Origin: Tubiluchus corallicola
Taxonomy: Eukaryota > Animalia > Priapulida
Length of the DNA: 64,000 nucleotides
NCBI GenBank assembly: GCA_030141605.1
Contig: JAQGDQ010000485.1
Coordinates: 104,412-168,411 of the forward strand
Direction: 5' to 3'
This document shows, one piece after another, positions 1,820 through 33,101 of this stretch (position 1 is the stretch's first letter; every line of letters begins with the position of its first letter). The notes under the pieces were generated by a model that saw only the letters and a list, made by a program, of their open reading frames with translations, was not told the DNA's origin and searched no databases. The position numbers and the translations under genes were made by a program.

Positions 1820-2316
1820 TTCCCAGGATTCACGGGGGAGAGAAGAACGTATCTTTGCTACGTTACACATGTAGCTTCAATGTCTGACTGTTCCTGCACG
1901 GTAAGTATGGTTACTTGGTGCAGACTTAGTGCAAATTAGTCAGCGTCAAGTGATAATTGTGTTGGCACCTTTCAAGTGTAGGGGTGGAGAAGGAAGGCGG
2001 TTTTCGTTTCGGAAAAGCTGATGCGTCACTAGTTCAGAGATGTAAGCGAAGGTTTCTGCGCTCGTTTGTGAATTTGTCGTTTTATTTGTTTTCGCGAGTA
2101 CAAAGCATTATTAAATTTACAATTACTTTTACTAGTGCATTTTATGTGAATGAATTTGGACTTTAATGGCTTTATTTTTTATCGCAGATATAGTTCGACT
2201 GTATTAAGACAAAAATAAAAAACACATTAACTACAGCGTGTTTCCTTTTTATACCAAAACAAGAATTTTCAATTTGGAGACTGCCGTCTCGTCAAGAAAG
2301 GACGCTTGCACATTTT
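1820..2316 (+). promoter_or_regulatory. Candidate promoter and non-coding 5' leader exons of the zinc-finger array
   Basis: Donor-like CACG|GTAAGT (1901) and GAT|GTAAGC (2042), acceptor ttatttttatcgcAG (2186-2187) and donor TTT|GTAAGT (2317) bound an ATG-free 129-nt exon at 2188-2316. Locally CpG-containing. Motif-level evidence only. Confidence 0.35.
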
Positions 2317-2585
2317 GTAAGTGCAACTATTGTGCCTGTCTTTCCAAAGTTATATTTATAATGTATCCTTAATAGTTAGGTATTTTAAATTATGCATGAA
2401 ACAAGGTAATTGATATTTTAAGTCCACTTAGAGGCTCTCTATGGTCACGAAATTGTAATTTGTTGCTGCGTACGGCCTGTTTCAGAGTTTTTTGCAATTT
2501 GTAATTCTCATCTCTGCTGTTAATAATGAATATAGTAATTCTATGCATTGGCTACTCAGAAATACAAATAAAAATGAGTAAACCA

Positions 2586-3111
2586 TTAAAGGAAAACCGG
2601 ATGATTGTGTTAACACGAGTTCAGAATAAAGAATACAATAGCTTTTTTTAAATCAATGCTTAGATTAAATAATAATTACCTCGGATACTCAAATTTCGTT
2701 AAACTTTCAAAGGTACCCGCGACTTAGTGAATCTACTAAGATTGGCAACGGCCCCTTTTTGTCACATTCGCATGGCCGATAAATAGAAGGCAGTACCGTG
2801 ATAAGCATGATCATGAACTGCAGTGTTTGTTTCTGACGTCATATGACGTAGAGCCCGTTTTCGTGGCATCACGTGTTTAAGCAGTAACACTTACGTAAAC
2901 ATGCTTGACACGCAAGTTAAGATGCCTGCCATTGCACAAACTGTGGTTAGTTTCTGATGTAAGCAATAGCTGTGTTAGGTTGCCGCTAATTAACTTTCTA
3001 AGCTAATTATTTAAAATATAAGAAACAATTGCTAACTTTTATAGGCAAGAAAATGTGTATTTTGGGCGGTAAATTTAACTGAGCCTAAACAATCGTCTGG
3101 TTTTCCTTTAA
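2586..3111 (+). mobile_element. Kolobok/T2-like MITE family A
   Basis: TTAA TSD at both ends; TIR AGGAAAACCGGATGATTG / CAATCGTCTGGTTTTCCT. Confidence 0.88.
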
Positions 3112-3276
3112 ACAAGATAGTAAAATTAAAGTTACGTATAAACTGTAAATAACAAATCACACACTCTAGCCTCATCAAACATGTTATTGTTTTCATTATC
3201 ATACAGTAAATTGTCGCTAATAAAAACAACTTTAATCCTTGCATTATATGATTGTAATTATTATATTACCCTAAGT

Positions 3277-3843
3277 CAGTGGTTCTTAACCTTGTTGGAT
3301 GTACCGAACCCCACCAGTTTCATATGCGCATTCACCAAACCCCTCTTTAGTGAAAAATAAAATATGATTTTTTTCAAATTCAAGACATAGATATGTTTTT
3401 TACTGGTACACAAAATGAGCCGTGCATGAACATCACCTTGTTCAAAGAACAAAACCAACACAATGCATAAACTCACAACAAATTACATACCTGCAAATCA
3501 GTGTGCTTCTGCTGTTGCCTTTGAGAGACCAGTTCAGATATGCGTGCCTTCACCTCAGCAAGTGCCACTCTCATGTCATTTTCACAGCAAAGTCTGTTCC
3601 TTTTCTTCGTTTTTATGTGTAGCATCCTCGAAAAGGATTGCTCACAAAGATATGTTGTAACAAATGGTATAAAAAAATCCAGGGCTTTCTTAGCAATAAC
3701 TGGATACTTGTTCATTTGTCGACACCAAAACGTTGAGAGCGTTGTTATTCTGAAAAGTTGCTGTTGAACCTGGCTCTGCCGAACCCCTGAGATCGACTCA
3801 CCGAACTCCTAGGGTTCGATCGAACCCAGGTTAAGAACCACTG
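3277..3843 (-). mobile_element. hAT Buster/Charlie-group deletion derivative carrying the transposase C-terminus
   Basis: TIR CAGTGGTTCTTAACC / GGTTAAGAACCACTG; 8-bp TSD ccctaagt/ccataagt with central TA. The minus-strand ORF 3473-3715 (YPVIAKKALDFFIPFVTTYLCEQSFSRMLHIKTKKRNRL) is the hAT dimerisation region. Confidence 0.9.
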
Positions 3844-4376
3844 CCATAAGTACAATGAAAATAAGTTTTCTTTCACTACATTGTTGGCACAGGCGTATAA
3901 GTATGTTTCCAACTGGCTTTAATTTATTATTTGGAGTCAAATTAATACAAGCTGCTATGCTTTAGTTGACTGATTCGTAACATGTTGCATGAAGTTACAT
4001 TGACCGAGGATTTTCAGCGCTTTTTTTAAATTTCTTCGGCAACTGAACATTGTATGAGGAGATGTTTGTGGAAATTAATTTTGCATTAGTTCACAAGGTT
4101 CTTCAAAGGTTATCTGGTTGTATCGAGGTTTTAATAGTTAATAATCAGTAAAACCGCTATCAAGAGCAAGATAATGCCCACAGAGAGCCATAATCTTGTT
4201 TCTTGTCAACTTTGATCTATTTTACTGCGACGTGGAACAGGTGCTGACAGCACAATGTGGGCATAAATCGATTTGGGTTTACACGTTGTTCAGCCATTTG
4301 GACTAAATTCCTTTTAGCACAAACTTGTTTGCTAGGTTGTGTTTTCATTTGATATCAGTGGTGTTATAACATTCTG

Positions 4377-4755
4377 ATCATATTGAAAACTGGAGCCTCG
4401 TCTGATCACCGAAGTTAAGCAACATAGAGCCTGGTTAGTACTTGGATTGGTGACCGCCTAGGAATACCGGGTGCTGTAGGCTTACGGGATGCCCACACTG
4501 TATCTTGACACTAGCAGCCAATGGCTAGAGGGCGGAGGAGGTCAAGTGACTCAACAGTCTTGTGTAGAGGAGTAAACCTTCCTGATCAGGAGTGGAGCCC
4601 CGAAGGCGGACCAGTGCAGCATGCTCACTGACTCCGGCAGCTCCTGCAGCCAACCTGGTGCCAAACATATCGCTCCGCTTTCCTTTGGACTACACCAGGG
4701 AGGAAGAGAGGGGGTTCCTGTTGTCTGGGCAACTCAGTATGCCAACAACAACAAT
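4377..4755 (+). mobile_element. 5S rRNA-headed SINE (SINE3-type), internally deleted copy
   Basis: 4397-4483 matches the 3' two-thirds of 5S rRNA (CTCGTCTGATCACCGAAGTTAAGC...TTAGTACTTGGAT..GACCGCCT.GGAATACCGGGTGCTGTAGGCTT) with no oligo-T terminator. It runs into a body shared with 22850-23236 and ends in (CAA)n. Confidence 0.82.
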
Positions 4756-5000
4756 GTAAATGTAAGCAAAAGTTTGTACACAAAACGATATGATTGTTTT
4801 GGTGCAATGAATGCAAAGGAGCCTCTTCAGAATAACAAATAAAAAACAGTATCATCAAAAGCAATACCACATATTTGTAAAAGATTTGAGAAGCAGCTTA
4901 GGAAGGTATCCAAGGACTATTTAGTAAGAACTACTATAGTGTCAACAAAGGGCTTGCACAAATTATTCAGTCCAGGGAAGGCACTAAAACAGTTGATTTT

Positions 5001-5364
5001 TCTTGTGGAGATCGCTGGCGTCTATTAGAATTACATTGTAGAATGTTCCGTTGGAATGATCGTCTGACCGTGCGGAATGTTCTGGAACAAAGCTTCTAGA
5101 AACTTCTCGGGCATGCTATAGAAGGCAAAGCAGGCCGCTGAGAGGGGAGCACACTGATTCACACGGACGCCACTTACACATTCTCTTGTATACTTGTATT
5201 TTCAGATACACTCAAACGTTTTCCAGATTTTCACGTTTACTGTAATCATTTCGCATTCCTTCATACTTATGTGTTGTAGAATTCTCGCTTAATAAACTAG
5301 TTCAATTTGACGAAGTGTTTTCTGGTTTTCTCTATGAGCCTTCTGAGAGAAACAAAACACAACA
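5001..5364 (+). mobile_element. Solo LTR
   Basis: T(c)TTGTG...CACAACA termini; 5-bp TSD ATTTT at 4996-5000 and 5365-5369; TATA-like ctataga near 5117, AATAAA at 5291 and nGAAn heat-shock arrays inside. Confidence 0.65.
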
Positions 5365-5397
5365 ATTTTGCAAGAAGGTATTTCTAATTTTACATAA

Positions 5398-5404
5398 TAT
5401 ATAT

Positions 5405-5446
<42 letters not shown>
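5398..5446. repeat. (TA)n microsatellite
   Basis: Direct reading. Confidence 0.95.
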
Positions 5447-5452
<6 letters not shown>

Positions 5453-5725
5453 AGTACAGATACATTTTATCTATATATTTATTTATCTAACGAGCCATTA
5501 ATCACAGAAAAGGGGAAGTTAGAGCTCAGTATTCCACTTAAAATCAAGAATTTATAGTGAAGAATGTTATATTTTGAATTACTCAAATTACTGAGCATGA
5601 TTTGCACCTAGGACCTTCTTATTGGTGGTTAACTGTATTCTTATTGTTTCTGTAATAGCAAACAACCAAACTGGTTATAAAGACATTGTGAAACATGATA
5701 GCAAAGAAATGCTTTTGGTGGTCAC

Positions 5726-6152
5726 CAGGGGCGTATCAGGACTTTACGATGCCCTAGGCTGCTAGTTTTGTCCAGCCTATCTCTATTGTGAATTCATGGT
5801 TGTTTATCTAATAAGCAGATTAAACAATTACTTGTGGTGTATTAGAAACATTATTATCCTAGTTTCTACGTGGTCATTGTTAATTACATCTACTTGCATA
5901 GCACTCGTATAAAAGCATGCCGCACAACTGTTTGTTGTGTAATACCTTGCACCTGTTCATTATGTGGCACTTATATAAAAACTTCTCTCAGTGACTGCTT
6001 GTGTGGTGTGTTATAAAATGTGATTATTTACATGAATATGAAAGAACACACATTTTTCGAGGAGAATAAGAACTTTTTCTAAAATATGACACCCCTCAAA
6101 CTTTGGCGCCCTAGGCTATAGCCTAGTTAGCCTATTGGTTAATACGCCCCTG
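5726..6152. mobile_element. Old hAT-like MITE
   Basis: TIR CAGGGGCGTAT / ATACGCCCCTG and repeated GCCCTAGGCT subterminal motifs; TSD degenerate (gtggtcac/gctgttac). Confidence 0.6.
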
Positions 6153-6236
6153 GCTGTTACATGGCATATAATTTGACTGAAAAGCTATGATGTGATTTTA
6201 GGTTCTCACTGAGAAGTAAACCATTATTGAACAGCA

Positions 6237-7043
6237 ATGGAACCATTGGTCTACTTTAAATGCACAGCCTGTTCTGAATGTTTTGTTTCTGAGGACATTT
6301 TCTTTGCACACACCCGTACCTGGCATTGTAAGATCTTGATTAGTGAAGGTCAGGATGCGGAAACAGAGGATGAAGATGAATATTCTATCTGTGCTGGCGA
6401 GTTTGAAAGTGCAGCTGACGATAATTCTTGTACAATATCCAGTGCTTCTGTATGTGAGAAAATCATTGATTATACAGCTGGTGATTCTGAAAGTGACAAA
6501 TACGTTGATCATAATAAGGAAAGTGATATTAAAAGTGAGCCAATGCCTCAATTCGGTGAGGATTTTCCAATTTTCGAGACTAATGCTCGAAGCAATGATC
6601 ACAGTGCGGTATTAGATGATGGTCCAGCCAGCACCATAATAAATCAACTACATCTTTCTGACTTTTATTCAGGGGTGCGACATATTCAGGAGAAACCACA
6701 TCAAATACCTGCTAGTCAGAGCAATGTTTTACCACAGATAACACTACACCAAAGTCAAAAGAAAATTAATAAAATATGCTACGCGAAAAAATTATTATCG
6801 TCTAAAGGACAGTCGGTAAAAACGACAATCGAACCATTCGGCTCGGCTGAAAAGCAGCCGCGAAAAGAGTCGGCTTATTTCTGTCGCTTTTGTCGGAGGC
6901 CATTTTGTGCGCCTGCACATCTAATACGACATGAACGAATTCACACAGGTGAAAAACCTTTTGTGTGCTCCGTGTGTCAGCGGGGTTTTGCCCAGGCGGG
7001 TAACTTAAAAGCTCACATGAAGACGCATCGTATGCCTGATTGA
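6237..7043 (+). CDS. C2H2 zinc-finger protein unit 1 (268 aa; conserved N-terminal module plus 2 C-terminal fingers)
   Basis: Intact ORF with in-frame upstream stops; fingers CRFC..HERIH and CSVC..HMKTH joined by a TGEKPF linker; acceptor AG at 6200-6201. Confidence 0.93.
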
Positions 7044-7088
7044 TGTTAGTGGTAATTAGTGGAGCAGTGTGGATTACTTGCATGGACC

Positions 7089-7651
7089 TTAAGGGAAAGG
7101 ACAAGTCATTCAGCTTGTTGGGTTTATTTTACTGTTATCACTGTTAGAAAACTCTAACAAAGAAATTTGCAAAGAACTGCCCATATAGTATAAACTTAAA
7201 ATATACTACCTCTGAATAGAAATTTTCAGGCGCAGTGGTTGCCGCCATTCACTCGACAATCATGATGTAACTGGGAGACTTCGTGACTTTTTGTAAACTC
7301 GTCATGGCTTTCCGTAACCATGCGCTGCTTAAAACTGATTCAAACTTCTGCAGCTTACATAATGCTCATGAAAAAATATTACAAACTTAGCTTTGTAATT
7401 TCTTTGTAAAAACTTAATACACTTTTGGTGAAGATTGACAGTGCGCTACTTTTCTTCAAGACGAATGACGTAGCTGGAAGAAGAATGGGTATTGAAAATT
7501 GGAGCGCCCAAGCATGAAATGATCGCGACTTTAAAGTGATTTTACTAGTTACACAAGGCGCTTATTGCAGCTTTATTACTAAATCCTTTTAGCATTTTTT
7601 GTGAACATTGAAATGAGCGTAATCTCTTGGGAAGCTTGGCCTTTCCTTTAA
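7089..7651. mobile_element. Kolobok/T2-like MITE family B, in the 3' region of unit 1
   Basis: TTAA|GGGAAAGGACAAG ... CTTGGCCTTTCCT|TTAA. Confidence 0.7.
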
Positions 7652-7780
7652 GTATGTGTGAACAGAACCATTATGAAAGTAACAACAGCAGTGTTTCAGT
7701 TGAAATAGAATCTTGTCAACTCTTATGTGCAGCTGAGCCTGTATGAAGTCATTAAATTATTTTTCATTTCTATGACTTTA

Positions 7781-8321
7781 TTAAAGGAAGACCGGACGAT
7801 TGTTTAGACTCAATCTCATTTTAATTTACTGTCCAAAATATACATTTTCGTGCCTGTAGAAGTTAACAATTGTTCCTTATATTTGAATAATCAGCTTAGA
7901 AAGTTAATTAACGGCAACTGAACACGGCCATTGCTTACATCAAAAACTAACCACAGTTTGTGCAATGGCAGGTGCCTACCCTTGCGGGTCAAGCACGTTT
8001 GCGTAAGTGTTACTTCTTAAATGCATGATGTCACGAAAAATGGGCTTTACATCATATGACATCATGAAACTAACACAGCAGTTCATGGTCATGGTTATCA
8101 CGGTACCGCCTTCTATTTGTCGTGACAAAAAGGCGCCGCTGCCAATCTTAGTAGATTCACTGAGCCGCTCGTAGCTTTGAAAGTTTAACTAAATTTGAGT
8201 ATCCGAGGTAATTATTATTTAATCTAAGCTTTGATTTAAAAAGAGATATTGTAGTTTTCAATATTTTAGAGCATTCTTTATTCTGAACTCGTGTTTACAC
8301 AATCATCCGGTTTTCCTTTAA
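7781..8321 (-). mobile_element. Kolobok/T2-like MITE family A
   Basis: TTAA TSDs and both TIRs; reverse complement of 2586-3111. Confidence 0.88.
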
Positions 8322-8637
8322 GGATTTTAGGAAAATGAATCTTTTTTTCTGTTTTTGTTCAGTGCCTCGCTTTCCGGCATTTCACAATTAATTTATTAAT
8401 CCTGTGACTTAATGTGTACAAAGCTGAATGCAAATTTAAACTATTTTTGTAATGTATAAAATTCAATAAAACAATCTAATTTCTTAATTTAATCTGTTAG
8501 TATCTTTGCAAATAAGAATAGAACAAAATAGATCACCGGAAAGTTTAAAATATCACATGAACCTAAACTGTCCTTTGTACTGCTTTCACATGCATTTTAG
8601 GTTTTTCTTGGTGAATAAAGATTGATGAACAAACACA

Positions 8638-9663
8638 ATGGAGCCAATGATTTACTTCAAATGTACAGCTTGTTCTGAGTGTTTTATGTCAGAGGATATT
8701 TTTTTTGCACACACCCGTACCTGGCACTGTAAAATACTAATTAGTGAAGGTCAGGATGCATATACCTCTACCTTGCATAGAGCCGGATCAGTTTTTGACG
8801 CGAAGACTTACATTTCCACTGAGGAGAGTTTTCATGCAAAAAATGACATTTATAGATCCAGTGGTGTTCAAGCTAATGAAGAGAAAAGCAGATGTACACC
8901 GGCAGTTTCGACTGACCTTCGTGGTACCCCCCATTCTCTCCTTGATGAAGGTACTTTAAAAGTGGAGCCAAGCTCTGAACTTGATTACTGTTTAATGGCA
9001 GGAAGTGGGAGTGCAAGCGAAATGGTAAGTTCGCTAAATTATGCCAGCAGCATTACTGTAAGTAATGTAGCGTGGAAACAATCACCTCGTCTTTTGTCAA
9101 GTGAATCATCTGTTTATCAGGCCGCACGGGGAAAGGTTTTTTCCCAGGAAGTAAATCAGACATCAGAAAATAAAGTGAAACAGTGGGATAAGAAAAGTGT
9201 GCTTGGTAAAGCAAAGATGTTCAAAGATCAGTACAGTACAAGCAGAATGCAACCTTCTCCAAGAGCAGATTTTTCGCAGCCAAACAAAGAAGTGCATATT
9301 GAAACGCAAAGACCTAAGAGAAGGACAGTGTATATCTGTCACGTTTGTGGTAAAGCGTTCAGATCAGCTGCTCTTGTTGACCAACATGGACGCATTCATA
9401 CAGGTGAAAAACCTTACTCCTGTGATGCGTGCGGAAAAAAGTTTACTTTTGAGTGGAACCTAAAAACTCACACTAGAATTCACACCGGTGAAAAACCATA
9501 TTCCTGTCACGTGTGTGGAAAAAGTTTTGCTGTAGTGTCCAACTTGAGAGCCCACGTGAAAATTCACACAGGTGAAAAACCTTTTACATGTTCAGTTTGT
9601 GAAAAAGGTTTTACTCAGAATCGTGACTTAAATAAACACTTGCTGATACACAGTAATTTCTGA
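8638..9663 (+). CDS. C2H2 zinc-finger protein unit 2 (341 aa; N-module plus 4 fingers)
   Basis: Intact ORF; four Cx2C-x12-Hx3H fingers with TGEKP linkers; acceptor AG at 8599-8600. Confidence 0.93.
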   Translation: MEPMIYFKCTACSECFMSEDIFFAHTRTWHCKILISEGQDAYTSTLHRAGSVFDAKTYISTEESFHAKNDIYRSSGVQANEEKSRCTPAVSTDLRGTPHSLLDEGTLKVEPSSELDYCLMAGSGSASEMVSSLNYASSITVSNVAWKQSPRLLSSESSVYQAARGKVFSQEVNQTSENKVKQWDKKSVLGKAKMFKDQYSTSRMQPSPRADFSQPNKEVHIETQRPKRRTVYICHVCGKAFRSAALVDQHGRIHTGEKPYSCDACGKKFTFEWNLKTHTRIHTGEKPYSCHVCGKSFAVVSNLRAHVKIHTGEKPFTCSVCEKGFTQNRDLNKHLLIHSNF

Positions 9664-10173
9664 TGTTTGAAGCACTGCGTGTAAGAAATTTAATTGGAGA
9701 TGAAATGCTGTTAGTTTTGCCTTGTGAATAATGTGGCTTGTGGTGTACATATGATAGCATCTCTGGAGACTGCAGAGATAGGATCTCTGGAGACCCTATA
9801 ACCAGGGCTGGATTACCCTAATTAGGCTATTATAGGCTACAACATAAGGCCCTCAAACTTGATGCGTCCTAAAATATTTTGAAATATAACTTTTTTTTAA
9901 ATATAATTTTTTGGAAAATGAGTATGATATTTTGACATTTTGCATTGCTGAATAATTCATTTAACTTTAAAAAAAGAAAACCTAAGAGTACGAAAACCCA
10001 ATTTTAAAAGGGGCCTCTGTTTGAGACCCTTTATTTAAGATAAAAGGCCTATGTTTCAGGCAGCTTATACAATGCATGGCAAAGAAATGTTCTAAGAAAA
10101 TGTACACTGGCATATAACATGCTAGCTATTTGCTCACAGGGTACTGAAAAGTCATGATGTGGTTTTAGTAAAG

Positions 10174-10240
10174 CACACATCTATAGGTGAAAAACCTTAC
10201 TCTTTCTGTCTGTACAGAAAAAGCGTTTCTTCAGAATAGT
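10174..10240 (+). pseudogene. Decayed zinc-finger linker/finger fragment downstream of unit 2
   Basis: ggtgaaaaaccttactct...agaaaa(a)gcgtttcttcagaatagt reads GEKPYS...RK/AFLQNS with the cysteines lost and a frameshift. Confidence 0.5.
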
Positions 10241-11440: not shown

Positions 11441-11800
11441 TTAAGTGAATTCCAACACGAGATATGAAGAAGTGGGCTCTGATGTTAGTGCGAGAGTGGT
11501 GTAGAAATAATTTAGAGTTGTGCTCACTGATGTCTTTATACTGATGCATGCTGGTCTAGAAATAAATTTACCACTACATAAAATTGAATTACCACTGATG
11601 TCTATAGCAGTAAGATCTATAGCATCACAGCATTGTTCAAGAGAAGATACAGAATCTGATTCAATATCAGAAGTTGAACTAATACACCGCCATTGAGTTC
11701 TTTCTAAAGCATCCCTTAGAGTAACATACTGAGGTGAGCCAAACAATGCATCATGCTCAAGTATTGTCCTAACTACAGCTTTGTACAGAGGGTTCACTCT
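11441..11800 (-). mobile_element. Degraded CR1/L2-group LINE fragments
   Basis: The minus ORF contains LYKAVVRTILEH...SP...LERTQWR, like the LYKSLVRPILEY..VWSP..LE.VQRR post-RT motif of CR1/L2 ORF2. Confidence 0.55.
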
Positions 11801-14170: not shown

Positions 14171-14299
14171 CTCTAGCATATTTCTGCAAAGCTTCATGAC
14201 AATCTTTTCCAAATGACGTTATTTTGTAATTACAATTATGTTACTAATTAATTATGAAATCTAAATTGAGAATGGGGGATCAAAAACCCAACTCCATGT

Positions 14300-14777: not shown

Positions 14778-16087
14778 TACACTAATGCAGTCAGTTGATG
14801 TTTTGCAAAGCTTGCAATCTTTTTGACAAATACGATGATGATACTCTGTAGTGGGTTTCTGTGCCAATAATTACAGCCATTGCCTACCTTTGTGCCTGCT
14901 CTGCTTACCTAACCACCACGCGACAGCAACATTCCACATGCTCCTCTGCTTGACTGTCTATTATCTATCACTAACTTAGTGTCAGTAAACAATAACCTGT
15001 TTAGGTTCAACACCTCTAACCATTATATCTATTTTTATGCTTGTTAGAACTGACAAAAATATACCTAAACCCTTTCTTGGTGTAGTGGCAAATGGTGTCA
15101 GCCACTTTTTGTTTTCACTGTAGTGACGTCTGTCGCATTTTTTTCAGATACTGTGTAGTATCTGATCTGTATGCAAAATTTCTCTCCATGAATACAAGCT
15201 ATTTTATGATTATAATTACACTCCTGCAAAAATGAGAATATAATCACCTCTCAAAAAACTAGAACTATAATATGTAAACCTACTCCCATGACCTTCTTTC
15301 TCCAAACTGTTTTTAGCACTATCCTGTTCTCACTGACCTACCTTGCTTTTCCTTTTTCACATTTATTACATATTTTTTTCTCTCTAGTACAAAGTACATA
15401 TACTAACAAATGCCAGGTGCCACTTGCTGGTTGGCCGCTGCTTTGCGATATGCTTCAGTGAAACCTAAAGACATGTGCTCACACTTAGCATAGCCTCTGT
15501 GGTTAACGCATTTCTAGGACCAATTTTTACGTTTGTTTTCATAAACAAGAAATCTGTTCAAATCTGTTCATAATTGTTCAAAGAGGAAAAAAGTTCTATT
15601 TGTAATGTTAAGAATGAGGACAATTGAAATGAACAATGTATTGTTAAACTAATTCATATTGAATAGAATGCTAGTCTAACTGTATTTCTACTGGCTGTGC
15701 CACTTAAATTTAGGTCGTGAGCCGCTACTGTGTTACATGTTGCATCTGTAGGTTGAGTACTAGTGTTATTGAACCTAGGTAATAACGCAAACTTGAGCAT
15801 TAATTTTAGTATTTTAATCACATAATCACTATATGTATATATAGTTACATTGACTTAAATTTAACCTTCAATTGTTTATGTGTGGAGCATAGAATTGTCT
15901 TATGTGGAAGAAAAAATGCCACAATGAAAAACAAAAAACATCTATTGAGTCACATGTAAACATTGGTGACGAGGTGTTTAGAAATGTTTCGTTGTGTAGA
16001 TACTACGTGTAGATAGCTGAACATTTCTCATGTAATTTTAGGTTATGACTGAAGGCTAAACATTTTAAGACAAGCAAACGATTCAAC

Positions 16088-17458
16088 ATGGATCCTTTAA
16101 TCTACTTCAAATGCACGGCCTGTTCTGAATGTTTTATGTCAGAGGACATTTTCTTTTCGCACACTCGAACCTGGCACTGCAAGATTCTTGTCACTGAGGG
16201 TCACGATGCAGAGACTGTGCTTGATGTTAGCTTACATGCTTTTAGTGAAGATGACTCTGATATAGTTGACCTCAGTTCTTCTGGCATGTGTAACTCTACT
16301 GCGATGAATGACAGAAATGAATGTGCTACTCCAAAAGGCAATGCTGTTGATACTAGCTCACTTGCAAAGAAATATTTGGATGATAATGGTGTAAAGATTG
16401 AGCCAGTCTCTCAGTTAAACGATGGTATTACAACAGATGATGCGAGTGAAGAAGACCAAATCATGCGCATTGAAAATAGTGCAAGCATTGTAGCTCCATT
16501 TGATACTCGAGATGCAAGCATGAAGGATCCAGAAAGTGAAATCCTACCTCAGCCAGTAGATGAGACATTTGTCCAACAGGAACCGACTTTCAAGTTTATA
16601 GATGACAACGCTGGCATTGTAGCGCTGGCTGACGCTCATAGTACTAACAGAAAAGACCAGCAAAGCAGAAGCCCACCTCCGTTTACAACAAAGGAAACAC
16701 ACATTAAACAGGAACCATCAGTCATGTGTGTAGGAGATAGTGCAGGCATTTTAGTTTCAGATGATGCTCATGACACTAATGTAGAACATCAACAAAGTCC
16801 GAATCCATCTCAGCTTGCTGGTGGAAAGACGTGTATTCAACAGGAATCGTTCAAATTATCTGATGTGTCTGATTACACCTTGCTGGAAGCAAAGTGCTTG
16901 CCTCATAGAGGGAGGTGGACAGTGAGAAAAAGGACACATCTTGATAACTTGCCAGACATGTTTAAAAATCATATTACGAAAAAGAAAAAATCCGAAAGAA
17001 AACAAGTGCCAACGCTCAAGCCTTTTGGAAAACAAAATACAAGAGAATTTGCATATCAGTGCGGGAAAGCATTTCAATCAGTTGCAGAAGTCGAAATGCA
17101 TGACCGCTTTCACACTCATGCAAAACAGTACTCTTGCAATATCTGTAAAAAAGTCCTTTCTTCTAGAAGCAGTTTGAAGTCGCATTTTAGAAGTCATACA
17201 GGTGAAAGACCGTTTGTGTGTTCGTTTTGCAAGAAAGCTTTTCTACAGACCGACGCTCTGAGATCACATTTAAGAATTCACACGGGCGAAAGACCGTTCA
17301 TTTGCTCTTTTTGCCAAAAGGGTTTCGCTCAGTCTAATAATCTGACGGCACATATTAGAATTCATACTGGCGAAAAACCGTTTGTGTGCCGTTTTTGCCA
17401 AAAGGGTTTTGCACAGTCTTCCAACTTGAGAAGTCACAATAAGACGTGCCGTAATTGA
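16088..17458 (+). CDS. C2H2 zinc-finger protein unit 3 (456 aa; N-module, triplicated linker, 1 degenerate plus 4 fingers, the last C2HC)
   Basis: Intact ORF with TGERPF/TGEKPF linkers; acceptor AG at 16040-16041. Confidence 0.93.
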   Translation: MDPLIYFKCTACSECFMSEDIFFSHTRTWHCKILVTEGHDAETVLDVSLHAFSEDDSDIVDLSSSGMCNSTAMNDRNECATPKGNAVDTSSLAKKYLDDNGVKIEPVSQLNDGITTDDASEEDQIMRIENSASIVAPFDTRDASMKDPESEILPQPVDETFVQQEPTFKFIDDNAGIVALADAHSTNRKDQQSRSPPPFTTKETHIKQEPSVMCVGDSAGILVSDDAHDTNVEHQQSPNPSQLAGGKTCIQQESFKLSDVSDYTLLEAKCLPHRGRWTVRKRTHLDNLPDMFKNHITKKKKSERKQVPTLKPFGKQNTREFAYQCGKAFQSVAEVEMHDRFHTHAKQYSCNICKKVLSSRSSLKSHFRSHTGERPFVCSFCKKAFLQTDALRSHLRIHTGERPFICSFCQKGFAQSNNLTAHIRIHTGEKPFVCRFCQKGFAQSSNLRSHNKTCRN

Positions 17459-18922: not shown

Positions 18923-19652
18923 TAGTTCATTTTAAACTTTTTTTGTGCTTCTTTAATTTGAGAATTCACTATGAGTGTTTTAAGTACAGTAGAAGTATGT
19001 TTGAATTTTCACTATTCAGTATATTGTAGTTTCAGATAAGATAGTCTTTATCGGCTACCAAAAAATAGAATGTGTTTTGAATTTTAAATTTATTACGGGA
19101 ATATTAACCCGCAAACTCTGAAGTACTGTATATTTCAAAAAAGGTTATAAAATAAATTTGTACATGTATCACTCCTACATGTTTAGAAAGGTCCAGGTTA
19201 GCAAGAAAGAAAACTAGTGATTTATTTAGCGCATCTGATAAGAAATTATCGTATAATATCATTACTGCATGCTCTCAGGCATCAGCTGCTCGTAAATAAT
19301 TGTTCAGTTTTCATGCAAGATAACGTAATTTCTTATAATACTATGTTGAAATGTTTTCACGTCATAATTAGTACTGGGGTTTAAGTTTTGAAGTTTTATA
19401 GACCACAAAATTTCAAGGCAAAAAATTTACTGATCTTTTAAATGTTGAATATCGCACATAGTTTCAAATGCATTACAAGCAAACAGTTTTTTGTATTCAC
19501 TTGCATTTTAGAATATCTGTAATATTTTAGCAATACAACAATGTCAATATGTTATAGGTTACGTATGTTTTGCTATTGTTATTTAAAATTTCTTATATAA
19601 TTTTTAGGCCTGTCTGCAGAGTAGACAATTGTTGATGGACTAAGAACTTAAG

Positions 19653-20520
19653 ATGGAGCCAATAATCTGTGTCAAATCACAGGCCGTTCCGAATGTTTTA
19701 TGCCAGTGAACATTTTTTGCATGCACCTGTACTTACTACTTAGCAATGTGTAGGATTCTGATTAATGTAGGTCAGAATGCATTTGACAATTCTTGTGGAT
19801 CCAACATTGTGAAGGTTAACGATACCATGCAGAGTGACCTGTATTATTAAAGGAAGACCGGACGATTGTTTAGGCTCAATCTCATTTTAATTTACTGTCT
19901 AAAATATACATTTTCTTGCCTATGAAAGTTAACAATTGTTCCTTATATTTGAATAATTAGCTTAGAAAGATAATTAATGGCAACTGAACACAGCTACTGC
20001 TTACGTCAGAAGCTAACCACAGTTTGTGCAATGACAGGCATTTTCCCTTGCGCGTCAAGCACATTTGCATCAGTGTTACAGTACTGTTTAAACGCGTGAT
20101 GTCACAAAAAATGGGCTCTACGTCATATGACGTCAGAAACTAACACAGCAGTTCATGATCATGCCTATCACGGTACCGCCTTCTGTTTGTCGGCCACGCG
20201 CACGTGATAAAAAGGCGCCGCTGCCAATCGTAGTAGATTCACTGAGCCGAGCGTAGCTTTGAAAGTTTAACGAAATTTGAGTATCCGAGGTAATTATTAT
20301 TTAATCTAAGCTTTGATTTAAAATAAGCTATTGTAGTTTTCAATATTTTAGAACATTCTTTATTCTGAATTCGTGTTTACACAATTATCTGCTTTTCCTT
20401 TAACAACTGCTTCCCTGTTACACCAAAGGAGGATTTTGATAATTATAGTAAGTGGGCCAAGAGTATCTCATGTGAAATATATGGTGGTCGCTCTGTGTGT
20501 CTCCGTGATGAAAAATTAAC
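19653..20520 (+). pseudogene. Decayed zinc-finger family unit (psi), interrupted by a MITE
   Basis: ATG GAG CCA ATA ATC TGT GTC AAA..TCC GAA TGT TTT ATG..ATT CTG ATT AAT GTA GGT CAG AAT GCA aligns to the N-module with frameshifts and stops; acceptor AG at 19606-19607. After the MITE the sequence reads NNCFPVTPKEDFD..SCEIY, similar to unit 4 NSGFPSSTRSNFD..SCEKY. Confidence 0.8.
19847..20403 (-). mobile_element. Kolobok/T2-like MITE family A inserted in psi
   Basis: TTAA TSDs and both TIRs. Confidence 0.88.
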
Positions 20521-20745
20521 CTTTCATGAAAGCTATTTGTAACAAAAAACTGTTGCCTATGGCAGATAATGAGTTTGCTGTCGATCATTTGTGTTTTTTC
20601 GACTGTAAAGTAAAATTAAAAAATAAAATAACAAATTTCTCCAAAAGTGAATCTCTTTCTTTTAATAGTTTAGATTATTGCACAAGAGAATTTAGTAATG
20701 CCTACAACATTTCTTTGTCCGTCTGTCGTTCTGTCCATTCATAAG

Positions 20746-23236: not shown

Positions 23237-24124
23237 TGTACAGCTCCTCTGCTGAAACTTTACCATCATGGTCTTAGTATTATCCGAAGCATTATTGAAA
23301 TTCTGTACTACCAAGAACCTATTTAAGTACAATTGCAAGTAATCAAATAGCTAACAGGTATAACCTATATAAAAGCCTTTCAGTGAGTCGATACTCACTT
23401 ATAAGTTCCTTAGGTACATGATTACAAAAATTGTTATTTATTCTATTGGTAAGAAAGAAATTAAGAAAGTTATGTAACTTGTTTGTTGAATAGCGGGTTG
23501 AAAGGAACAAAAACGGTTGAATTCTGTATCAATAAAACGTGTTTATAAAAATTAATCAAAAAATGAAGATACAAACTGATGTATTAAAATCTAAAACAAG
23601 TCTAATACAAGTCAAGTCTATTTAACAGCATAATACCCTTGTATAAATAGAGATATCCAGTGATTACCAATGTATATTAATGGAAATAAAGAATATTATA
23701 TATATATATATATACATGTATAATATCCTTGAAAATGCGGATGTATAATTATAGTACACCATAATCTGAGGCTGTTTACTGCATTTTAACTGCAGGCATG
23801 TCAGGAAATGACATAAAAAACTATTGACAGTGTTACAGTGAGGCAGTGCCAGTTTAAATTTAATATAGTGTTACTGCATTAATATCCAATTCCACTTTGA
23901 AATTTTTCAATATGGGTTGAATCAAAAATCTATTAAGCAGTCAAACAACTAGGCACATATTCACGAAAATAATTCACAGACTTGTTGACTTGCAGAAGTT
24001 ACTGTAAACCTTTTATGAATCATTTAAGAAGTTGCTAAAGGCACAATACTTCTCTTTTTGAAAGTTTGTCATGTAATTTCTAGGTTGTGACAGAAAAGAA
24101 AGACTGTTGAACTAAAGGATCGTT

Positions 24125-25238
24125 ATGGAATCGATGATTTATTTCAAATGCACAGCCTGTTCTGAATGTTTCATTGCTGAGGACATTTTCTTTGCGCACA
24201 CCCGTACCTGGCACTGTAAGATACTGATTAGTGAAGGTCAGGATACAGACATCGCCTATTGACAACTTTGCAGCGTCCACAAACAAAAATTTTGATGCAG
24301 CTGACAGCTCTTATGGGAACTGCGATGTTGCTGCTAAAGATGTTGCTATCAGCAGATCTAAAACTTCGAGGAATCATCATCTCGGTGATGATCAAGACGC
24401 GGAAATTTCTCAAATTAACAGCGGCTTCCCAAGTTCCACAAGGAGCAATTTTGACATAATCAGTGGCTCCTGCGAAAAATACGATGTCTGCGCCTCTAAT
24501 GGTAATAATAGTCAACATTCTAATGTGTGTAACAATATGCCTGATAAAAATTCATCTCTCATAGAGACTAACCTTAATGCAAATGCAGTAAAGACCGAAC
24601 CGACCTCTCCATTAGATGATGTGGGTTACGGCATAAATGCAACGACTAATGTATGTGCACAAGCTGATTTGAACAGTATAAAAGTAAATGATGATCCTGG
24701 CATCGACAGAATAGAAGAACAACAGCAATCACTCTTACCTTTCCTGTCAACACTAGAGTGTGCTTCATCAACAGATATTTGCAGAAGTGCAAATGTTGCA
24801 CAGCCAATTAACTTATTTTCCAACCAGAGGAGATATTCAACAAGAGTAAATGAGTTACACATGCAAGCTGGCATATACCGGCCAAGCGAAAACGCTCTCG
24901 TAAAAGAATCTGCTTATTTCTGTCGATATTGCAGACGAGCGTTCAAATATCTCGAGCATGTTAAAAGACATGAAAGAATTCACACGGGTGAAAAACCTTT
25001 TTCGTGCAGTGTGTGTAGAAAACGCTTCAACCAAGAAGGGAATTTAAAAATTCACATGGTGACTCACACAGATGAAAAACCGTTTTCTTGCAACGTGTGT
25101 GGAAAACGTTGTAATCTAGAAAGAAATCTAAAAAGGCACATGAAAATTCACACAGGTGATAGACCTTTTATGTGTTCTATTTGTAATAAATGCTTTACTC
25201 AGTCTTCTCACTTGAAAAAACACATCGTGACCCACTAA
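24125..25238 (+). pseudogene. Zinc-finger unit 4 with a single frameshift near 24245-24252 (N-module plus 4 fingers; possibly a null allele or assembly error)
   Basis: ATG 24125 reads [45 protein letters not shown] (TGA 24260-24262). The adjacent frame is open to TAA 25238 with four intact fingers; acceptor AG at 24082-24083. Confidence 0.85.
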
Positions 25239-28187: not shown

Positions 28188-28655
28188 GAAATTGGTTGTG
28201 TGAACTTTGAAGTCGTGTAGGCAAGCTTTTCTTAAATCATAGCAATTTAATTATCTTCTTTTAAAATTATGCTGCATTTCTTAGCGTTTGTAAGATAAAG
28301 ATTTAAATTAATTTATTTCACATTCACGGTTAATAATCAGTACAAAAGATCACAACAAAATACAAAGATTGCCAAAAATGTGAGGGCAACATGGGACCCA
28401 TAGGTTCTTCGCATGTTGGGATAGACACATCTTATGTCTGATGAGCAGTTTATATAAGTTGTAGACTAGAAAGCGCGCTTAAAGTTATTGAGTCGTTATT
28501 GACTTTGTGTCTTGGATTCGTGCCTCATGATTTTTGGTTACTTGTGGCCCATCCCTCTTCTGTTCCTTTAATTATTAGCATTAGTTACTGTTATATAAAG
28601 TAGTTTATTACCCTTTTATAATATTCTATTTTTCAACTTGCAGTACTAATCGTTA

Positions 28656-29187
28656 TTAGACTCAACCTCATTTTAATTTACTGTCTAAAGTATACATTTT
28701 CCTGCCTATAAAAGTTAACAACTATTCCTTATATTTGAATAATTAACTTTGAAGGTTAATTAACGGTAGCCGAACACAGCTATTGCTAACGTCAGAAACT
28801 AGCTTCAGTTTGTCAATAGCAGGCGTCTTCCCTTGCGCATCAAGTACATTTGCATAGGTGTTACAGTACTGTTTAAAAGCGTGATGTTTCGAAAATGGGC
28901 TTTACATCATATGACGTCAGAAACTAACACAGCAGTTCATGACCATGGTTATCACGGTACCGGCTTGTATCTGTCGGCCCAACGAATGTGACAAAAAGGC
29001 GCCGCTGCCAACCTTAGTAGATTCACTGGACCATGCATTGCTTTGAAAGTTTAACGAAATTTGAGTATCCGAGGTAATTATTATTTAATCTAAGCTTTCA
29101 TTTACAATAAGGTATTGTAGTTTTCAATATTTTAGAGCATTCTTTATTCTGAACTCGTGTTTACACAATCATCCGGTTTTCCTTTAA
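28656..29187 (-). mobile_element. Kolobok/T2-like MITE family A with one TIR missing
   Basis: Body colinear with 19847-20403; ends CCGGTTTTCCT|TTAA. Confidence 0.85.
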
Positions 29188-29474
29188 GTAAATTACAGTC
29201 ACCTTGATTCTAATCGGTACCATCACAAATCGCCAGTAGTCGGGAATAAAGGCAATTCTCTTGACCTTATTCTCAACAAGTTAAAATTACTACTTACATA
29301 ACACTAGACCCATATCATTACAATGAGTGTGGATAGAGAGGAGTTAATTCCAGTCTAGTATGACTAATCATACTAATTGAATCATTTCTCACAGCTTTTA
29401 GTTCTACAAATTTCTGCAGTTTCTATTTATAGCCGCTCATTCCATCTTGTACAACTGGCATGAAAAACTTTGTA

Positions 29475-29913: not shown

Positions 29914-30228
29914 TACCACTGATTCTATCCCAGTCTGTTAAACTATTAAAGCAGAGATCACATTACCTGGACATCTTACTCGATCTTCCAATGAACTGTG
30001 ACTAGTCTGTGATTGTAGAAATAACATAAAATGAGTCTTCGTTATTGTGGGCATCAAGCTTACTGACCAGAAATTCTCTGTCAATGTATGGCTAGCTTTT
30101 TTTGTGAATTGGGGTCAAGTTGCCAAATTTCCAGTCAAGTGTATGCACAATATGTACAATTGTGAAATAAGAGGTTATGCAGCTCTTTCAGGACTCTAGG
30201 TGATAACCATTGGGTGCCTATAATTTAC

Positions 30229-30784
30229 TTAAAGGAAAACCGGTTGATTGTGTAAACACGAGTTCAGAATAAAGAATTCTCTAAAATATTGAAAACTACA
30301 ATAGCTTTTTTTGAACCAAAGCTTAGATTAAATGATAATTACCTCGGATACTCAAATTTCGTTAAACTTTCAAAGCTACGCGCGTCTCAGCGAATCCGCT
30401 AAGATGGACAGTGTTGCGTTTTTGTCACGTGCGCTTGGCCGACAAATAGAAGGCAGTACCGTGATAACCATGCTCATGAACTGCTGTGTTAGTTTCACGA
30501 CGTCATATGAAGTAAAGCCCATTTTTCGTGATATCATGCGCTTAAGCAGTACTGTAACACCTATGCAAACAAGCTTGACGCGCAAGGGAAGACGCCTGCC
30601 CTGCCAAACTGTGGTTAGTTTCTGACGTAAGCAATAGCTGTGTTCGGTTGCCATTAATTATCTTTCTAAGCTAATTATTGAAATATAAGGAACAATTGTT
30701 AACTTTCATAGGCAAGAAAATGTATGTTTTGGACAGTAAATTAAAATGAGATTGAGTCTAAACAATCGTCTGGTTTTCCTTTAA
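30229..30784 (+). mobile_element. Kolobok/T2-like MITE family A
   Basis: TTAA TSDs and both TIRs. Confidence 0.88.
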
Positions 30785-31494
30785 AGTGATTTGGCCTACA
30801 GTTGTAGTTTAGTGTTAATAGTGTCTTTATTAATAATGATGTGGTTTGAGAGCTTTCCGTTGCATGTATTTAACATATTGGGTAAGTACAATTACAATTC
30901 ACACAATACATACACAGTTTACAAAGATATAAACACATACATATATAAATGCTATAAAAACAATTACTACGTTATTAAGAATGCAATTATACATGTCAAA
31001 TTCAATAATTTAAACTAAAGACAGAACATCAAACTTTGACGTACAAACCCAATAAACTCGCCATTGTTTGTCGATGTTGTAGTCTCATAAACTTTGCATC
31101 ATGACAGGGAGGTAGTTGCAAATCATGCAGGATAACAGGTTTTGCCCCTTTGATGATCACCTATTTTTACTAGCCTAGTAAAAAGTAAGCAATTTTTCAA
31201 CAATAATACTGCCAAACCATTTCTGATAAATTAAACAATAGATTAAAAAGTTTATTAACTGCTGGCAAACCCAACTATTGATGACATAATAAATGAACAT
31301 AATTTTCAACAACACAAATATTCCATGAGCGTGTTACACGTGTTTGCAAAAGCGAAAATTGAAGTATAGTGCTACTGTACGAGATTCAGCATGATATACT
31401 AAACTCGACAAATTTTAAGATAAAAGATTCAAATTTCAAATTTACCTATGCGCTCACACATGAGCTTTCGAAAGTGTGTGCTATATCATAAACA

Positions 31495-31972
31495 AACACC
31501 TCTGAACTTAGAGGTACAGCACCTGTTTTTTGTGCAACTTATTTCTGATAAGTAGGCACTAGTTCCTGTCTAATTACCCAATGACGAAACACGGTGAAGA
31601 ACCAGCCGTAGGAACACGAAATTACTTTTGCGTGATAACAGTTCTGTCACGTAAGTCCTTCTTGAAAGAATAGTATGTTTCTTTTCAATATTTTAAAGAG
31701 TACATTGTTTTGACCTACAGTTTAAGATTGGGTCCAGTTTTTAACGAACACCTCTGAACTAAGAGATACAGCACCTGTTTTTTGTGCATCGTATTTCCGA
31801 AATATAGGTGCTAGTGCCTAGCTAACTAACCAATGACGAAATGCATGTCACAGTGAAGAACCAGCCGTGGGATCACGAAATTACTTTTGCGTGGTAATAG
31901 TTTTTTTTTCATTATTTTAAAGAGTATATTGTTTTCACCTACAGTTTAAGATTGGGTCCAGTTTTCCTTTAA
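31495..31972. repeat. Diverged ~230-250-bp tandem duplication ending in a Kolobok-like right TIR
   Basis: aacacctctgaact...ttaagattgggtccagttt occurs twice; the second copy ends CCAGTTTTCCT|TTAA, 60 bp upstream of the unit 5 acceptor. Confidence 0.7.
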
Positions 31973-32077
31973 GTAGAAGGATGCGTATTTTAACTTTATA
32001 TGAACATATAAATGTTTCTGTTTACTTTTTAGGTGCAGGAAAATAGCGAACAGCAGTGACAAAGCAAACAACATAAA

Positions 32078-32977
32078 ATGGAACCAATGATTTACTTCAA
32101 ATGTACTGCCTGTTCTGAGTGTTTTATGTCGGAGGACATTTTCTTTGCGCACACCCGTACATGGCACTGTAAGATTCTCATTACGGAGGGTCAGGATGCA
32201 GAGACTTCTATTGACAATGACCTTTCAAGTTATGACCGCAAGTCTGAAGAATCTTATGGATTTTCTGCCGTGGTCGCATCCAGTGATGATATTTCTGATT
32301 ATATAACTGACGCCAGCAAGTGTGCAGATGGAGACTTGATTAGTAAACAAAGCATTTTCAGTGATGAAGTCTGTCTGAAGCTCGAACCAGATTCTCAAAT
32401 AAATGACAAGTCTTTCACAGATGCTACGAGCCAAATGTCAACTCCAAAAACTAATATTGATATTGTTACTATTGAAGATGACAATAGCGGCTTAGATAAG
32501 CATGACACGCATACACCTCATTCTTTACCAGTGCCGCAGTATCTTGATCAAAGCATGTGCCAAAGCTCTCGTAGTTCAAACTATCGCTCTCCAAAATTGC
32601 CACCATTTCTCAGCCATTTAAAAATGAAAACGAAGCATCCGAAATTTAGTGCGACACTGCAGTCTCATTTCGGACAGTCCATGCCCGTGTCGGTCAGGTC
32701 AACAAAGTCAAATACCAGAAAGGAAACAGCATATTTCTGTCAGTACTGCCGGAAGGCATTTACAACATTCCAAGGGCTTCAAAGACATGAGAGGATTCAC
32801 ACGGGTGAAAAACCTTATTCTTGCAATGTGTGCGATAAACGTTTCACGGTGTCGTGCAACCTGAAAACTCACATGCGTGTTCATACTGGAGAAAGACCTT
32901 ACAAGTGTACTACATGCCAGAGCAGCTTTGGTCAGCTTTCAGAACTGAAAAGACATACAAGGTCACACACAAGGTGA
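32078..32977 (+). CDS. C2H2 zinc-finger protein unit 5 (299 aa; N-module plus 3 fingers)
   Basis: Intact ORF with TGEKPY/TGERPY linkers; acceptor AG at 32031-32032. Confidence 0.93.
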
Positions 32978-33101
32978 ACCTTACAAGTGCACTTTGACTT
33001 ACAAAAATAGTTGCAATAAACTTTCAGTACTGATTTACATGGTGAACTTTACAAGTGCACTTTGGCTTACAAAAATAGTTGCAATAAACTTTCAGTACTG
33101 A
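32973..33101 (+). repeat. 68-bp tandem duplication spanning the unit 5 stop and an AATAAA
   Basis: ggtgaac(c/t)ttacaagtgcacttt..gcaataaactttcagtactga at 32973 and 33041. Confidence 0.85.

What the first reader, a model, noticed from the sequence alone, without database searches (positions are those of the whole stretch)
1820..33000. Six zinc-finger coding exons each begin at a splice acceptor but seem to lack private first exons: a shared-leader cassette locus or an SL trans-spliced operon
Seen: every unit, including the pseudogene, has a T-rich ...TTTAG|G or TTCTAG|G acceptor 35-46 nt before its ATG (AG ending at 6201, 8600, 16041, 19607, 24083, 32032). In the four intact units there are in-frame stops between acceptor and ATG, so the joined sequence is non-coding. 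Between the unit 1 stop and the unit 2 acceptor only ~450 bp is not MITE, and it holds an AATAAA (8465) just 130 nt before the acceptor, leaving little room for a promoter, first exon and donor. The psi-to-unit 4 gap is likewise largely MITE, satellite and SINE. The best leader-exon candidate is upstream of the whole array (donors 1901, 2042, 2317; exon 2188-2316). Inference: either one promoter splices to any of 5-6 mutually exclusive complete terminal coding exons, so a single locus makes a ZF repertoire (like lola or mod(mdg4) but with no shared coding exon), or a polycistronic pre-mRNA is resolved by spliced-leader trans-splicing.
Basis: partly seen in the sequence, partly recalled or inferred. 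Interest (0 to 1): 0.82.

Follow-up and report, generated by a model that had tools for sequence, protein, structure and literature searches.

The report
Priapulid zinc-finger array sharing one leader
In what is likely a priapulid worm genome, six tandem copies of a zinc-finger coding exon (four intact) each start behind a conserved, predicted splice site and with their own start codon, and they are likely all spliced onto one shared non-coding leader, so that one promoter would supply several different gene regulators predicted to pair through an unnamed front-end zinc module; no RNA evidence was obtained.

Summary
The observation largely holds. Six paralogous units each have T[T/C]TAG|G 35-46 nt before their ATG (14 of 1,252 window ATGs do). 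Synonymous sites are near saturation, so selection likely keeps the site. Stops and mixed phases exclude a shared coding exon. Four units are intact, one is frameshifted and one is a fingerless remnant. The unit 1-2 gap holds about 450 bp outside two MITEs and no good donor. The only ATG-free, CpG-rich exon candidate lies upstream of the array (2188-2316). The animal is likely a priapulid. All units begin with an unnamed 40-residue zinc module; every named relative found is from Priapulus, and it is predicted to homodimerise. No transcript could be tested. Odds: shared cis-spliced leader 0.45, separate genes with private first exons 0.33, spliced-leader operon 0.12, mod(mdg4)-type trans-splicing 0.07. 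Shared non-coding leaders are known, mostly for gene pairs; a whole transcription-factor cassette array would be a new variant.

The parts
1780..2041 (+). Candidate promoter and first exon(s) of the shared leader; alternative donors at 1901 (ACG|GTAAGT) and 2042 (GAT|GTAAGC)
   Evidence: CpG 21 vs GpC 26 in 1780-2356, like the Pim promoter (41 vs 49) and unlike 1290-1780 (4 vs 17); donors. Inferred.
2188..2316 (+). Candidate non-coding leader exon, 129 nt, T-rich acceptor and GTAAGT donor at 2317
   Evidence: Only ATG-free, unmasked internal-exon candidate listed upstream of unit 5; stops in all three frames. Inferred.
6202..7043 (+). Unit 1 coding exon: ATG 6237, 268 aa, N-terminal module plus 2 C2H2 fingers
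7088..7652 (.). TTAA-flanked MITE A in the unit 1-2 gap
   Evidence: 18-nt inverted arms, 89% complementary
7779..8326 (-). TTAA-flanked MITE B; sister copies at 763-1289, 2580-3130, 19844-20403, 28653-29203, 30213-30785
   Evidence: self-BLAST; ends
8465..8470 (+). AATAAA, candidate polyadenylation signal of unit 1, 135 nt before the unit 2 acceptor
8601..9663 (+). Unit 2 coding exon: ATG 8638, 341 aa, module plus 4 fingers; probable orthologue or close paralogue P0139 (65% over 336 aligned residues)
16042..17458 (+). Unit 3 coding exon: ATG 16088, 456 aa, module plus 4 fingers
19608..19843 (+). Pseudo-unit: acceptor, ATG 19653 and decayed module, cut off by a MITE; no finger array found
24084..25238 (+). 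Unit 4 coding exon: ATG 24125, module, frameshift near 24245-24260, then an open frame with 4 fingers (mutation or assembly error not resolved)
32033..32977 (+). Unit 5 coding exon: ATG 32078, 299 aa, module plus 3 fingers

Best explanation
The array is a set of old tandem copies of one zinc-finger coding exon, each with its own start and stop codon, and it likely works as one locus in which a promoter near 1.8-2.0 kb would make a non-coding leader (exon 2188-2316) that is spliced to one coding exon per mRNA. Shown: the acceptor-like sites, separate reading frames, absence of a shared coding exon, purifying selection on the module. Inferred: the acceptor chosen would define the terminal exon and its own poly(A) site, with upstream units skipped as intron, which would explain why transposons fill every gap without killing the units. 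Each protein has a 40-residue N-terminal zinc module, a fast-evolving linker and 2-4 C2H2 fingers; the module is predicted to dimerise, so the products would be dimeric DNA-binding regulators, possibly mixing partners.
For: Acceptor motif at fixed spacing in 6 of 6 units vs 14 of 1,252 ATGs although synonymous sites in the module are near saturation (pS 0.41-0.80, pN 0.015-0.097, 10 pairs). Unit 2 has 458 bp of non-MITE upstream gap with no GTRAG and best donors scoring 1.8 and 0.7 against 5.1-7.2 for the four Pim donors. The leader region is CpG-rich like the Pim promoter, while the unmasked DNA in the 500 bp before acceptors u1-u4 and psi holds 8/25, 3/8, 6/11, 2/14 and 8/17 CpG/GpC. Synonymous CpGs are most depleted at the start of each coding exon (module odds ratio 0.07, p 0.001; linker 0.38), as expected inside a methylated gene body and not next to a start site; Priapulus is predicted to methylate DNA (PMC8821070, passages). 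Priapulus relatives have several RefSeq accessions for one protein and an isoform with 17 extra N-terminal residues, which fits spliced, variable 5' leaders in the family. Three family proteins each list a longest Logan contig of 7,155 bp, suggesting a second tight array (at most about 3.0 kb non-coding in all). Dimer model: score 0.63, best of 3 controls 0.02, runs agree in at least 87% of contacts, pLDDT at least 78.
Against: No junction or transcript was seen. The large gaps hold donor-like sites (11734, 14340, 22145, 22336, 30882, 31651) and first exons need no acceptor, so private first exons are not excluded for u3, u4, u5. The proposed leader donor 2317 itself scores only 0.9 on the matrix that rejects the unit 2 gap, so that matrix is not decisive. 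CpG depletion fades toward each stop codon (fingers odds ratio 0.67, not significant; fingers vs the rest p 0.13), which could mark separate transcription units or promoters in the tail of the previous unit. No selector or docking motif was found. T-over-A skew is as strong upstream of the leader (0.088 in 1-1750) as in the gaps (0.016-0.035), so the true start could lie outside the window. In Priapulus the 8 named family clusters lie on 7 scaffolds, so members also occur at separate loci.
Confidence: 0.45

Rival explanations
1. Ordinary tandem gene cluster: each unit is a separate gene with its own promoter and private non-coding first exon in the gap or in the tail of the unit before it.
For: This is the usual layout of single-coding-exon gene families (for OR genes PMC7055050, passages: only 7 human and 7 mouse loci share 5' UTR exons). 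Gaps of 4.2-6.8 kb have room and donor-like sites. CpG depletion fades toward each stop. A TAA|GTATGT site at 7652 and GTG|GTAATT at 7052 could serve unit 2. Family members lie on 7 Priapulus scaffolds.
Against: Unit 2 has only 458 bp outside MITEs, including unit 1's likely poly(A) signal. The unmasked DNA before the acceptors is CpG-poor; other CpG-rich windows in the gaps (10651, 14501, 18151, 7251) fall in or beside probable repeats.
Confidence: 0.33
2. Operon: one polycistronic pre-mRNA is cut into single mRNAs by poly(A) cleavage and spliced-leader trans-splicing at each acceptor.
For: AATAAA 135 nt before the unit 2 acceptor matches nematode intercistronic spacing (median 124-129 bp; PMC7668243, passages); a TAYYTT lies 100 nt upstream there. 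The probable 7,155-bp three-ORF contig would fit a polycistronic RNA if it came from RNA.
Against: The nearest AATAAA is 398-1,512 nt upstream for the other four acceptors and gaps reach 6.8 kb. No held paper joins priapulids with SL trans-splicing (0 mentions in PMC7986045). A cis leader exon candidate exists upstream.
Confidence: 0.12
3. mod(mdg4)-type system: internal promoters make donor-less outrons in front of each unit, and these are trans-spliced to the common non-coding leader.
For: It would reconcile the lack of local donors with the CpG recovery near each unit's 3' end. The mechanism is shown for Drosophila mod(mdg4) (PMC12692577, abstract).
Against: All units lie on one strand downstream of the leader, so nothing forces trans-splicing; no direct sign.
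Confidence: 0.07

Closest known systems
Drosophila genes that share a promoter and 5' non-coding exons (130 genes in FlyBase, e.g. Ip259/RpS27A; PMC4528330, passages)
   Same: One leader, separate complete coding regions, no shared coding sequence.
   Different: The examples in the passages read are gene pairs; here it would be five or six paralogous transcription-factor exons in one array. Those cases have transcript support, this one does not.
Mammalian olfactory receptor genes sharing 5' UTR exons (7 human, 7 mouse loci; PMC7055050, passages)
   Same: Tandem paralogues with the whole ORF in one last exon behind non-coding exons; occasional shared leader.
   Different: There sharing is the exception and most genes have their own promoter.
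Drosophila mod(mdg4) (PMC12692577, abstract) and lola (recalled)
   Same: Array of alternative 3' exons carrying different DNA-binding or variable domains; products carry an N-terminal oligomerisation domain (BTB, recalled).
   Different: They share coding exons. Here no coding exon can be shared, and each unit carries its own copy of the predicted dimerisation module.
Nematode SL2 operons (PMC7668243, passages)
   Same: Acceptor before each ATG; one gap with about 130 nt from AATAAA to acceptor.
   Different: Four of five gaps are longer; no SL known to me in this phylum.
Lineage-specific zinc-finger families with N-terminal dimerisation domains: insect ZAD-ZNF (PMC12649048, search listing), Opbp (PMC5716193, passages), BCL11A/B ZnF0 (recalled)
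   Same: Conserved N-terminal interaction module, variable linker, C-terminal C2H2 array, tandem expansion.
   Different: The module has no Pfam match at E <= 0.05; it is a C2H2-like finger with invariant C9, C12, F22, H25, H30, C31, L34 and an extra C-terminal strand; all 8 named clusters are Priapulus caudatus.

Membership tests
Shared-promoter / shared 5' non-coding exon genes | Separate complete coding regions with no shared coding exon | tested here: met
   Stops before each ATG, differing phases; no shared N-terminal extension among 17 relatives that have one
Shared-promoter / shared 5' non-coding exon genes | Splice acceptor upstream of each ATG | tested here: met
   Sequence motif in 6 of 6 units, conserved against diverged flanks; use in splicing is inferred
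Shared-promoter / shared 5' non-coding exon genes | Transcripts join the same donor to several acceptors | not testable with these tools
   No usable transcript data (see Tried and rejected)
Shared-promoter / shared 5' non-coding exon genes | One promoter upstream, none in the gaps | tested here: inconclusive
   CpG profile favours 1.8-2.3 kb, but repeats confound the gaps and depletion fades at 3' ends
lola / mod(mdg4)-type locus | Common N-terminal coding exons (BTB) | tested here: not met
   No upstream coding exon can join in frame
lola / mod(mdg4)-type locus | Tandem alternative 3' exons with different finger arrays | tested here: met
   Five units with 2-4 different fingers, 31-38% identical in the pairs listed for u1, u2, u5
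lola / mod(mdg4)-type locus | Internal promoters and trans-splicing | not testable with these tools
   Needs cap mapping and allele-phased reads
SL trans-spliced operon | SL RNA gene and leader on mRNAs | not testable with these tools
   No genome held; Rfam shows no SL family in the window
SL trans-spliced operon | Short poly(A)-to-acceptor distance at each downstream gene | tested here: inconclusive
   135 nt in 1 of 5 gaps; 398, 456, 744, 1,512 nt to the nearest AATAAA in the others; real poly(A) sites unknown
ZAD-, BTB-, KRAB- or SCAN-type zinc-finger proteins | Named N-terminal domain | tested here: not met
   No such Pfam hit on any unit or on the 45-residue module at E <= 0.05
ZAD-, BTB-, KRAB- or SCAN-type zinc-finger proteins | N-terminal domain that self-associates (works-like feature) | tested here: inconclusive
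   Model supports a homodimer, 0.63 vs best control 0.02; prediction only

The most novel reading that the evidence does not exclude
Priapulids build a transcription-factor repertoire from arrays in which one promoter and non-coding leader select among complete zinc-finger coding exons, each carrying its own copy of a phylum-specific dimerisation finger, so that exon choice plus mixed pairing yields a combinatorial set of DNA-binding dimers: a lola-like outcome reached with no shared coding exon.
Probability: 0.3. Interest if true: 0.75.

Novelty: new variant of a known kind. Interest (0 to 1): 0.5.

Why it matters
If the shared leader is real, new transcription factors could be added by duplicating a single exon behind an existing promoter, with the dose of each set by splice and poly(A) choice. 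That is a cheap route to zinc-finger family expansion, distinct from whole-gene duplication in KRAB or ZAD clusters. If instead an SL is joined, it would place trans-splicing in a phylum for which my searches found no report. Whatever the RNA shows, the N-terminal module defines an unnamed priapulid zinc-finger family with a predicted dimerisation domain.

Tried and rejected
No RNA holder listed for 5900-9700. Contigs of X1 and X2 laid on 1-18000 at 90% and of X2 on 1300-17500 at 80% showed no joint at any acceptor among the rows displayed; the tables were cut (77 joints hidden; 111 loose ends and 85 pieces hidden), X2 matched mainly repeats with 61 of 84 contigs under 90% alike, and it is only guessed to be RNA. 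This is no evidence either way. No whole genome is held. The full-length protein search returned generic finger arrays in the 120 rows shown. The metagenome scan gave 2 loci from 124 pattern hits; L001 was read and looks like GC-rich bacterial DNA, L002 was not read; both rejected as chance. The Atlas search of the module gave unnamed or generic C2H2 clusters at 0.91-0.93. PDB sequence and fold searches gave only weak finger matches: best E 0.0022 to a designed finger array, no Foldseek hit at E <= 0.001, best Z 4.2; this does not show a new fold. Shared k-mers before the acceptors and complementarity to the leader intron did not exceed resampled controls. tblastn with 67 family proteins found no further unit besides the pseudo-unit; a finger-linker-like stretch near 1825-1860 gave no hit. 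A shared coding exon was rejected. Promoter-motif and skew scans did not discriminate. The module tree (53 rows, 39 columns, bootstrap unsettled) only separates the window units with 17 Logan proteins from named Priapulus members. Chimeric Priapulus isoforms were not counted as support, since mismatched junction calls across tandem paralogues are a known artefact (PMC4528330). One SL survey paper I wanted was not held. Splice matrices and motif lists use recalled general frequencies, not ones trained on this genome.
Full report
Organism. No genome is held. A Pim kinase gene lies downstream (39146-46529). Its third exon is 95% identical to an unnamed Logan protein and 70% to Priapulus caudatus Pim, the best named hit, against 55-65% for the other 118 rows shown. 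All 8 named clusters among the 30 family proteins looked up are P. caudatus; the other 22 are unnamed Logan records. The window is therefore likely from a priapulid other than P. caudatus. Two earlier notes on this genome reached the same guess; they are not independent evidence.

Anatomy. Six paralogous units lie on the + strand between 6.2 and 33.0 kb. Units 1, 2, 3 and 5 are intact single-exon ORFs of 268, 341, 456 and 299 aa with 2, 4, 4 and 3 C2H2 fingers. Unit 4 has its ATG at 24125, shifts frame just after the N-terminal module and then runs open through four fingers. The pseudo-unit at 19608 keeps only a decayed module. All start with a module of about 40 residues that has no Pfam match. 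A profile of it finds 57 representatives among 1.84 billion proteins. Of 58 family proteins examined, 49 matched the module pattern; its first cysteine lies within 15 residues of the start in 31, at 16-60 in 17 and later in 1, and the 17 longer N-terminal extensions share nothing at E <= 0.01. The family therefore has no common upstream coding exon.

The acceptors. All six units have T[T/C]TAG|G 35-46 nt before the ATG; 14 of 1,252 window ATGs do, these six included. The units are paralogues, so this is one ancestral site kept six times. It is kept while its flanks have diverged to 0.23-0.40 identity and while synonymous sites in the module are near saturation (pS 0.41-0.80, pN 0.015-0.097). 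That points to selection on the site, and a 3' splice site is the simplest reading. On my recalled-frequency matrix five of six rank in the top 0.2-3.4% of AGs, unit 1 only in the top 24.5%, and the four Pim acceptors in the top 0.1-1.7%. Stops between acceptor and ATG in units 1-5 and mixed phases mean that the joined exon is non-coding. Priapulus records fit a spliced leader region in this family: four accessions encode P0154, two encode P0159, and P0180 differs from P0143 only by 17 extra N-terminal residues.

What is joined. The unit 1-2 gap is the tightest test. Two TTAA-flanked MITEs fill 1.1 kb of it. The rest is 458 bp, holds AATAAA 135 nt before the acceptor, has no GTRAG, and its best donors score 1.8 and 0.7 against 5.1-7.2 for Pim donors. 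MITE B has donor-like sites (8003, 8208), but its copies in the gaps are 85-89% alike and so are likely younger than the units. Against this, the proposed leader donor 2317 scores only 0.9 on the same matrix. The other gaps are 2.1-6.8 kb and carry donor-like sites at 0.5-1 per kb, like the flanks, so they neither show nor exclude private first exons. Upstream of the array, 2188-2316 is the only ATG-free, unmasked internal-exon candidate listed before unit 5, is closed in all frames, and follows a CpG-rich stretch with donors at 1901 and 2042. I could not confirm that this stretch is single-copy: the X1 bin 1801-2400 has high summed depth, which the repeat starting at 2357 may explain.

CpG profile. 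P. caudatus is predicted to have all DNA methyltransferases and methylation (PMC8821070, passages). The leader region has CpG/GpC 21/26 and the Pim promoter 41/49; the unmasked DNA before acceptors u1-u4 and psi is lower (8/25, 3/8, 6/11, 2/14, 8/17; u5 has only 68 unmasked bases). Synonymous CpGs are strongly depleted in the modules (odds ratio 0.07) and linkers (0.38) but not significantly in the finger arrays (0.67); the contrast of fingers with the rest has p 0.13. Methylated exon starts favour a distant promoter. The fade toward each stop, and CpG-rich DNA after units 3, 4 and 5, leave room for promoters or transcript ends there. I first saw this contrast on a 60/40 split chosen after viewing the data and report the boundary-based test as the fair one.

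Other arrays. XP_014674169 and XP_014674171 both list a 126,250-bp scaffold. P0148, P0149 and P0151 each list a longest contig of 7,155 bp; if that is one contig, three ORFs leave about 3.0 kb for two gaps and flanks. P. caudatus 'ZNF852-like' isoforms mix three module variants with two following segments, which indicates tandem copies inside one annotated locus but may be mismapping. The 8 named clusters lie on 7 scaffolds, so any single-locus repertoire is per cluster, not the whole family.

The module. AlphaFold2 with a 36-row alignment gives two strands, a helix and an extra strand at 33-37, mean pLDDT 70, pTM 0.44. Folded as two copies with zinc, it scores 0.63 with a best control of 0.02; runs agree in at least 87% of contacts, pLDDT is at least 78, and residues 30-34 of one copy touch 6-11 of the other. 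That mark was reached by 21 of 30 microbial proteins solved as pairs and 0 of 23 solved as single chains; in eukaryotes by 17 of 29 pairs (animals 7 of 16; only 1 of 7 without an older solved relative) and 0 of 30 single chains. The alignment was not used and the calibration held no ligand. The model supports self-association but does not show it. Heterodimers were not tested.

Comparison and novelty. Sharing a promoter and non-coding exons is known for 130 Drosophila genes (PMC4528330, passages) and for 7 human and 7 mouse OR loci (PMC7055050, passages). mod(mdg4) joins common exons to variable 3' exons in trans (PMC12692577, abstract). Nematode operons keep about 125 nt between poly(A) site and acceptor (PMC7668243, passages). 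I found no paper on a zinc-finger array behind a shared non-coding leader (0 papers), none on this priapulid family by title (6 listed), and none reporting SL trans-splicing in priapulids (passages of PMC2566580 and PMC2481426 mention priapulids only for phylogeny). The library lacks most subscription papers, one SL survey was not held, and no supplements were read.

Verdict. The sequence observation is real apart from the unit count. The shared-leader model is the best single reading at 0.45, with ordinary separate genes close behind at 0.33, an SL operon at 0.12 and mod(mdg4)-type trans-splicing at 0.07. One 5' RACE or long-read experiment would decide it. Interest 0.5; new variant of a known kind.

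Noticed in passing
window 39146-46529 (+): Five-exon Pim kinase gene with a CpG-rich promoter at about 38500-39230; used to place the organism.
   Followed up: yes
window 763-1289, 2580-3130, 7779-8326, 19844-20403, 28653-29203, 30213-30785, broken copy 57623-59214: Six copies of one 550-bp MITE, mostly TTAA-flanked, within 31 kb over the array against one broken copy in the other 33 kb; TTAA flanks and purine-starting ends suggest a Kolobok-type element (name recalled).
   Followed up: partly
window 4365-4740 (+) and 23004-23239 (-): 5S rRNA-headed repeat, probably a 5S-derived SINE, and a partial inverted copy of its body.
   Followed up: partly
window 3287-3844 (-): hAT transposon remnant with a dimerisation-domain hit.
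   Followed up: partly
window 20746-22037: 56-bp satellite, 23 copies, 96% matches, with an AATAAA in most units, inside the psi-unit 4 gap.
   Followed up: no
window 11441-12043 (-) and 17631-17897 (-): Open frames of 200 and 88 codons with no Pfam match, probably transposon remnants; 17459-18476 is CpG-rich and holds an exon-like stretch ending at donor 18170.
   Followed up: partly
window 32969-33101: 68-bp tandem duplication over the unit 5 stop, giving two AATAAA signals (33015, 33083).
   Followed up: no
window 34456-35722: CpG-rich unmasked stretch with a YY1-like motif at 34751 and a strong acceptor at 35499; possibly an upstream promoter or exon of Pim.
   Followed up: no
window 8625-8627 and 16045-16059: Upstream ATGs between acceptor and main ATG in units 2 (overlapping, out of frame) and 3 (four-codon uORF).
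   Followed up: no
proteins P0140, P0142, P0155: Family members that appear to carry the N-terminal module twice in tandem.
   Followed up: no
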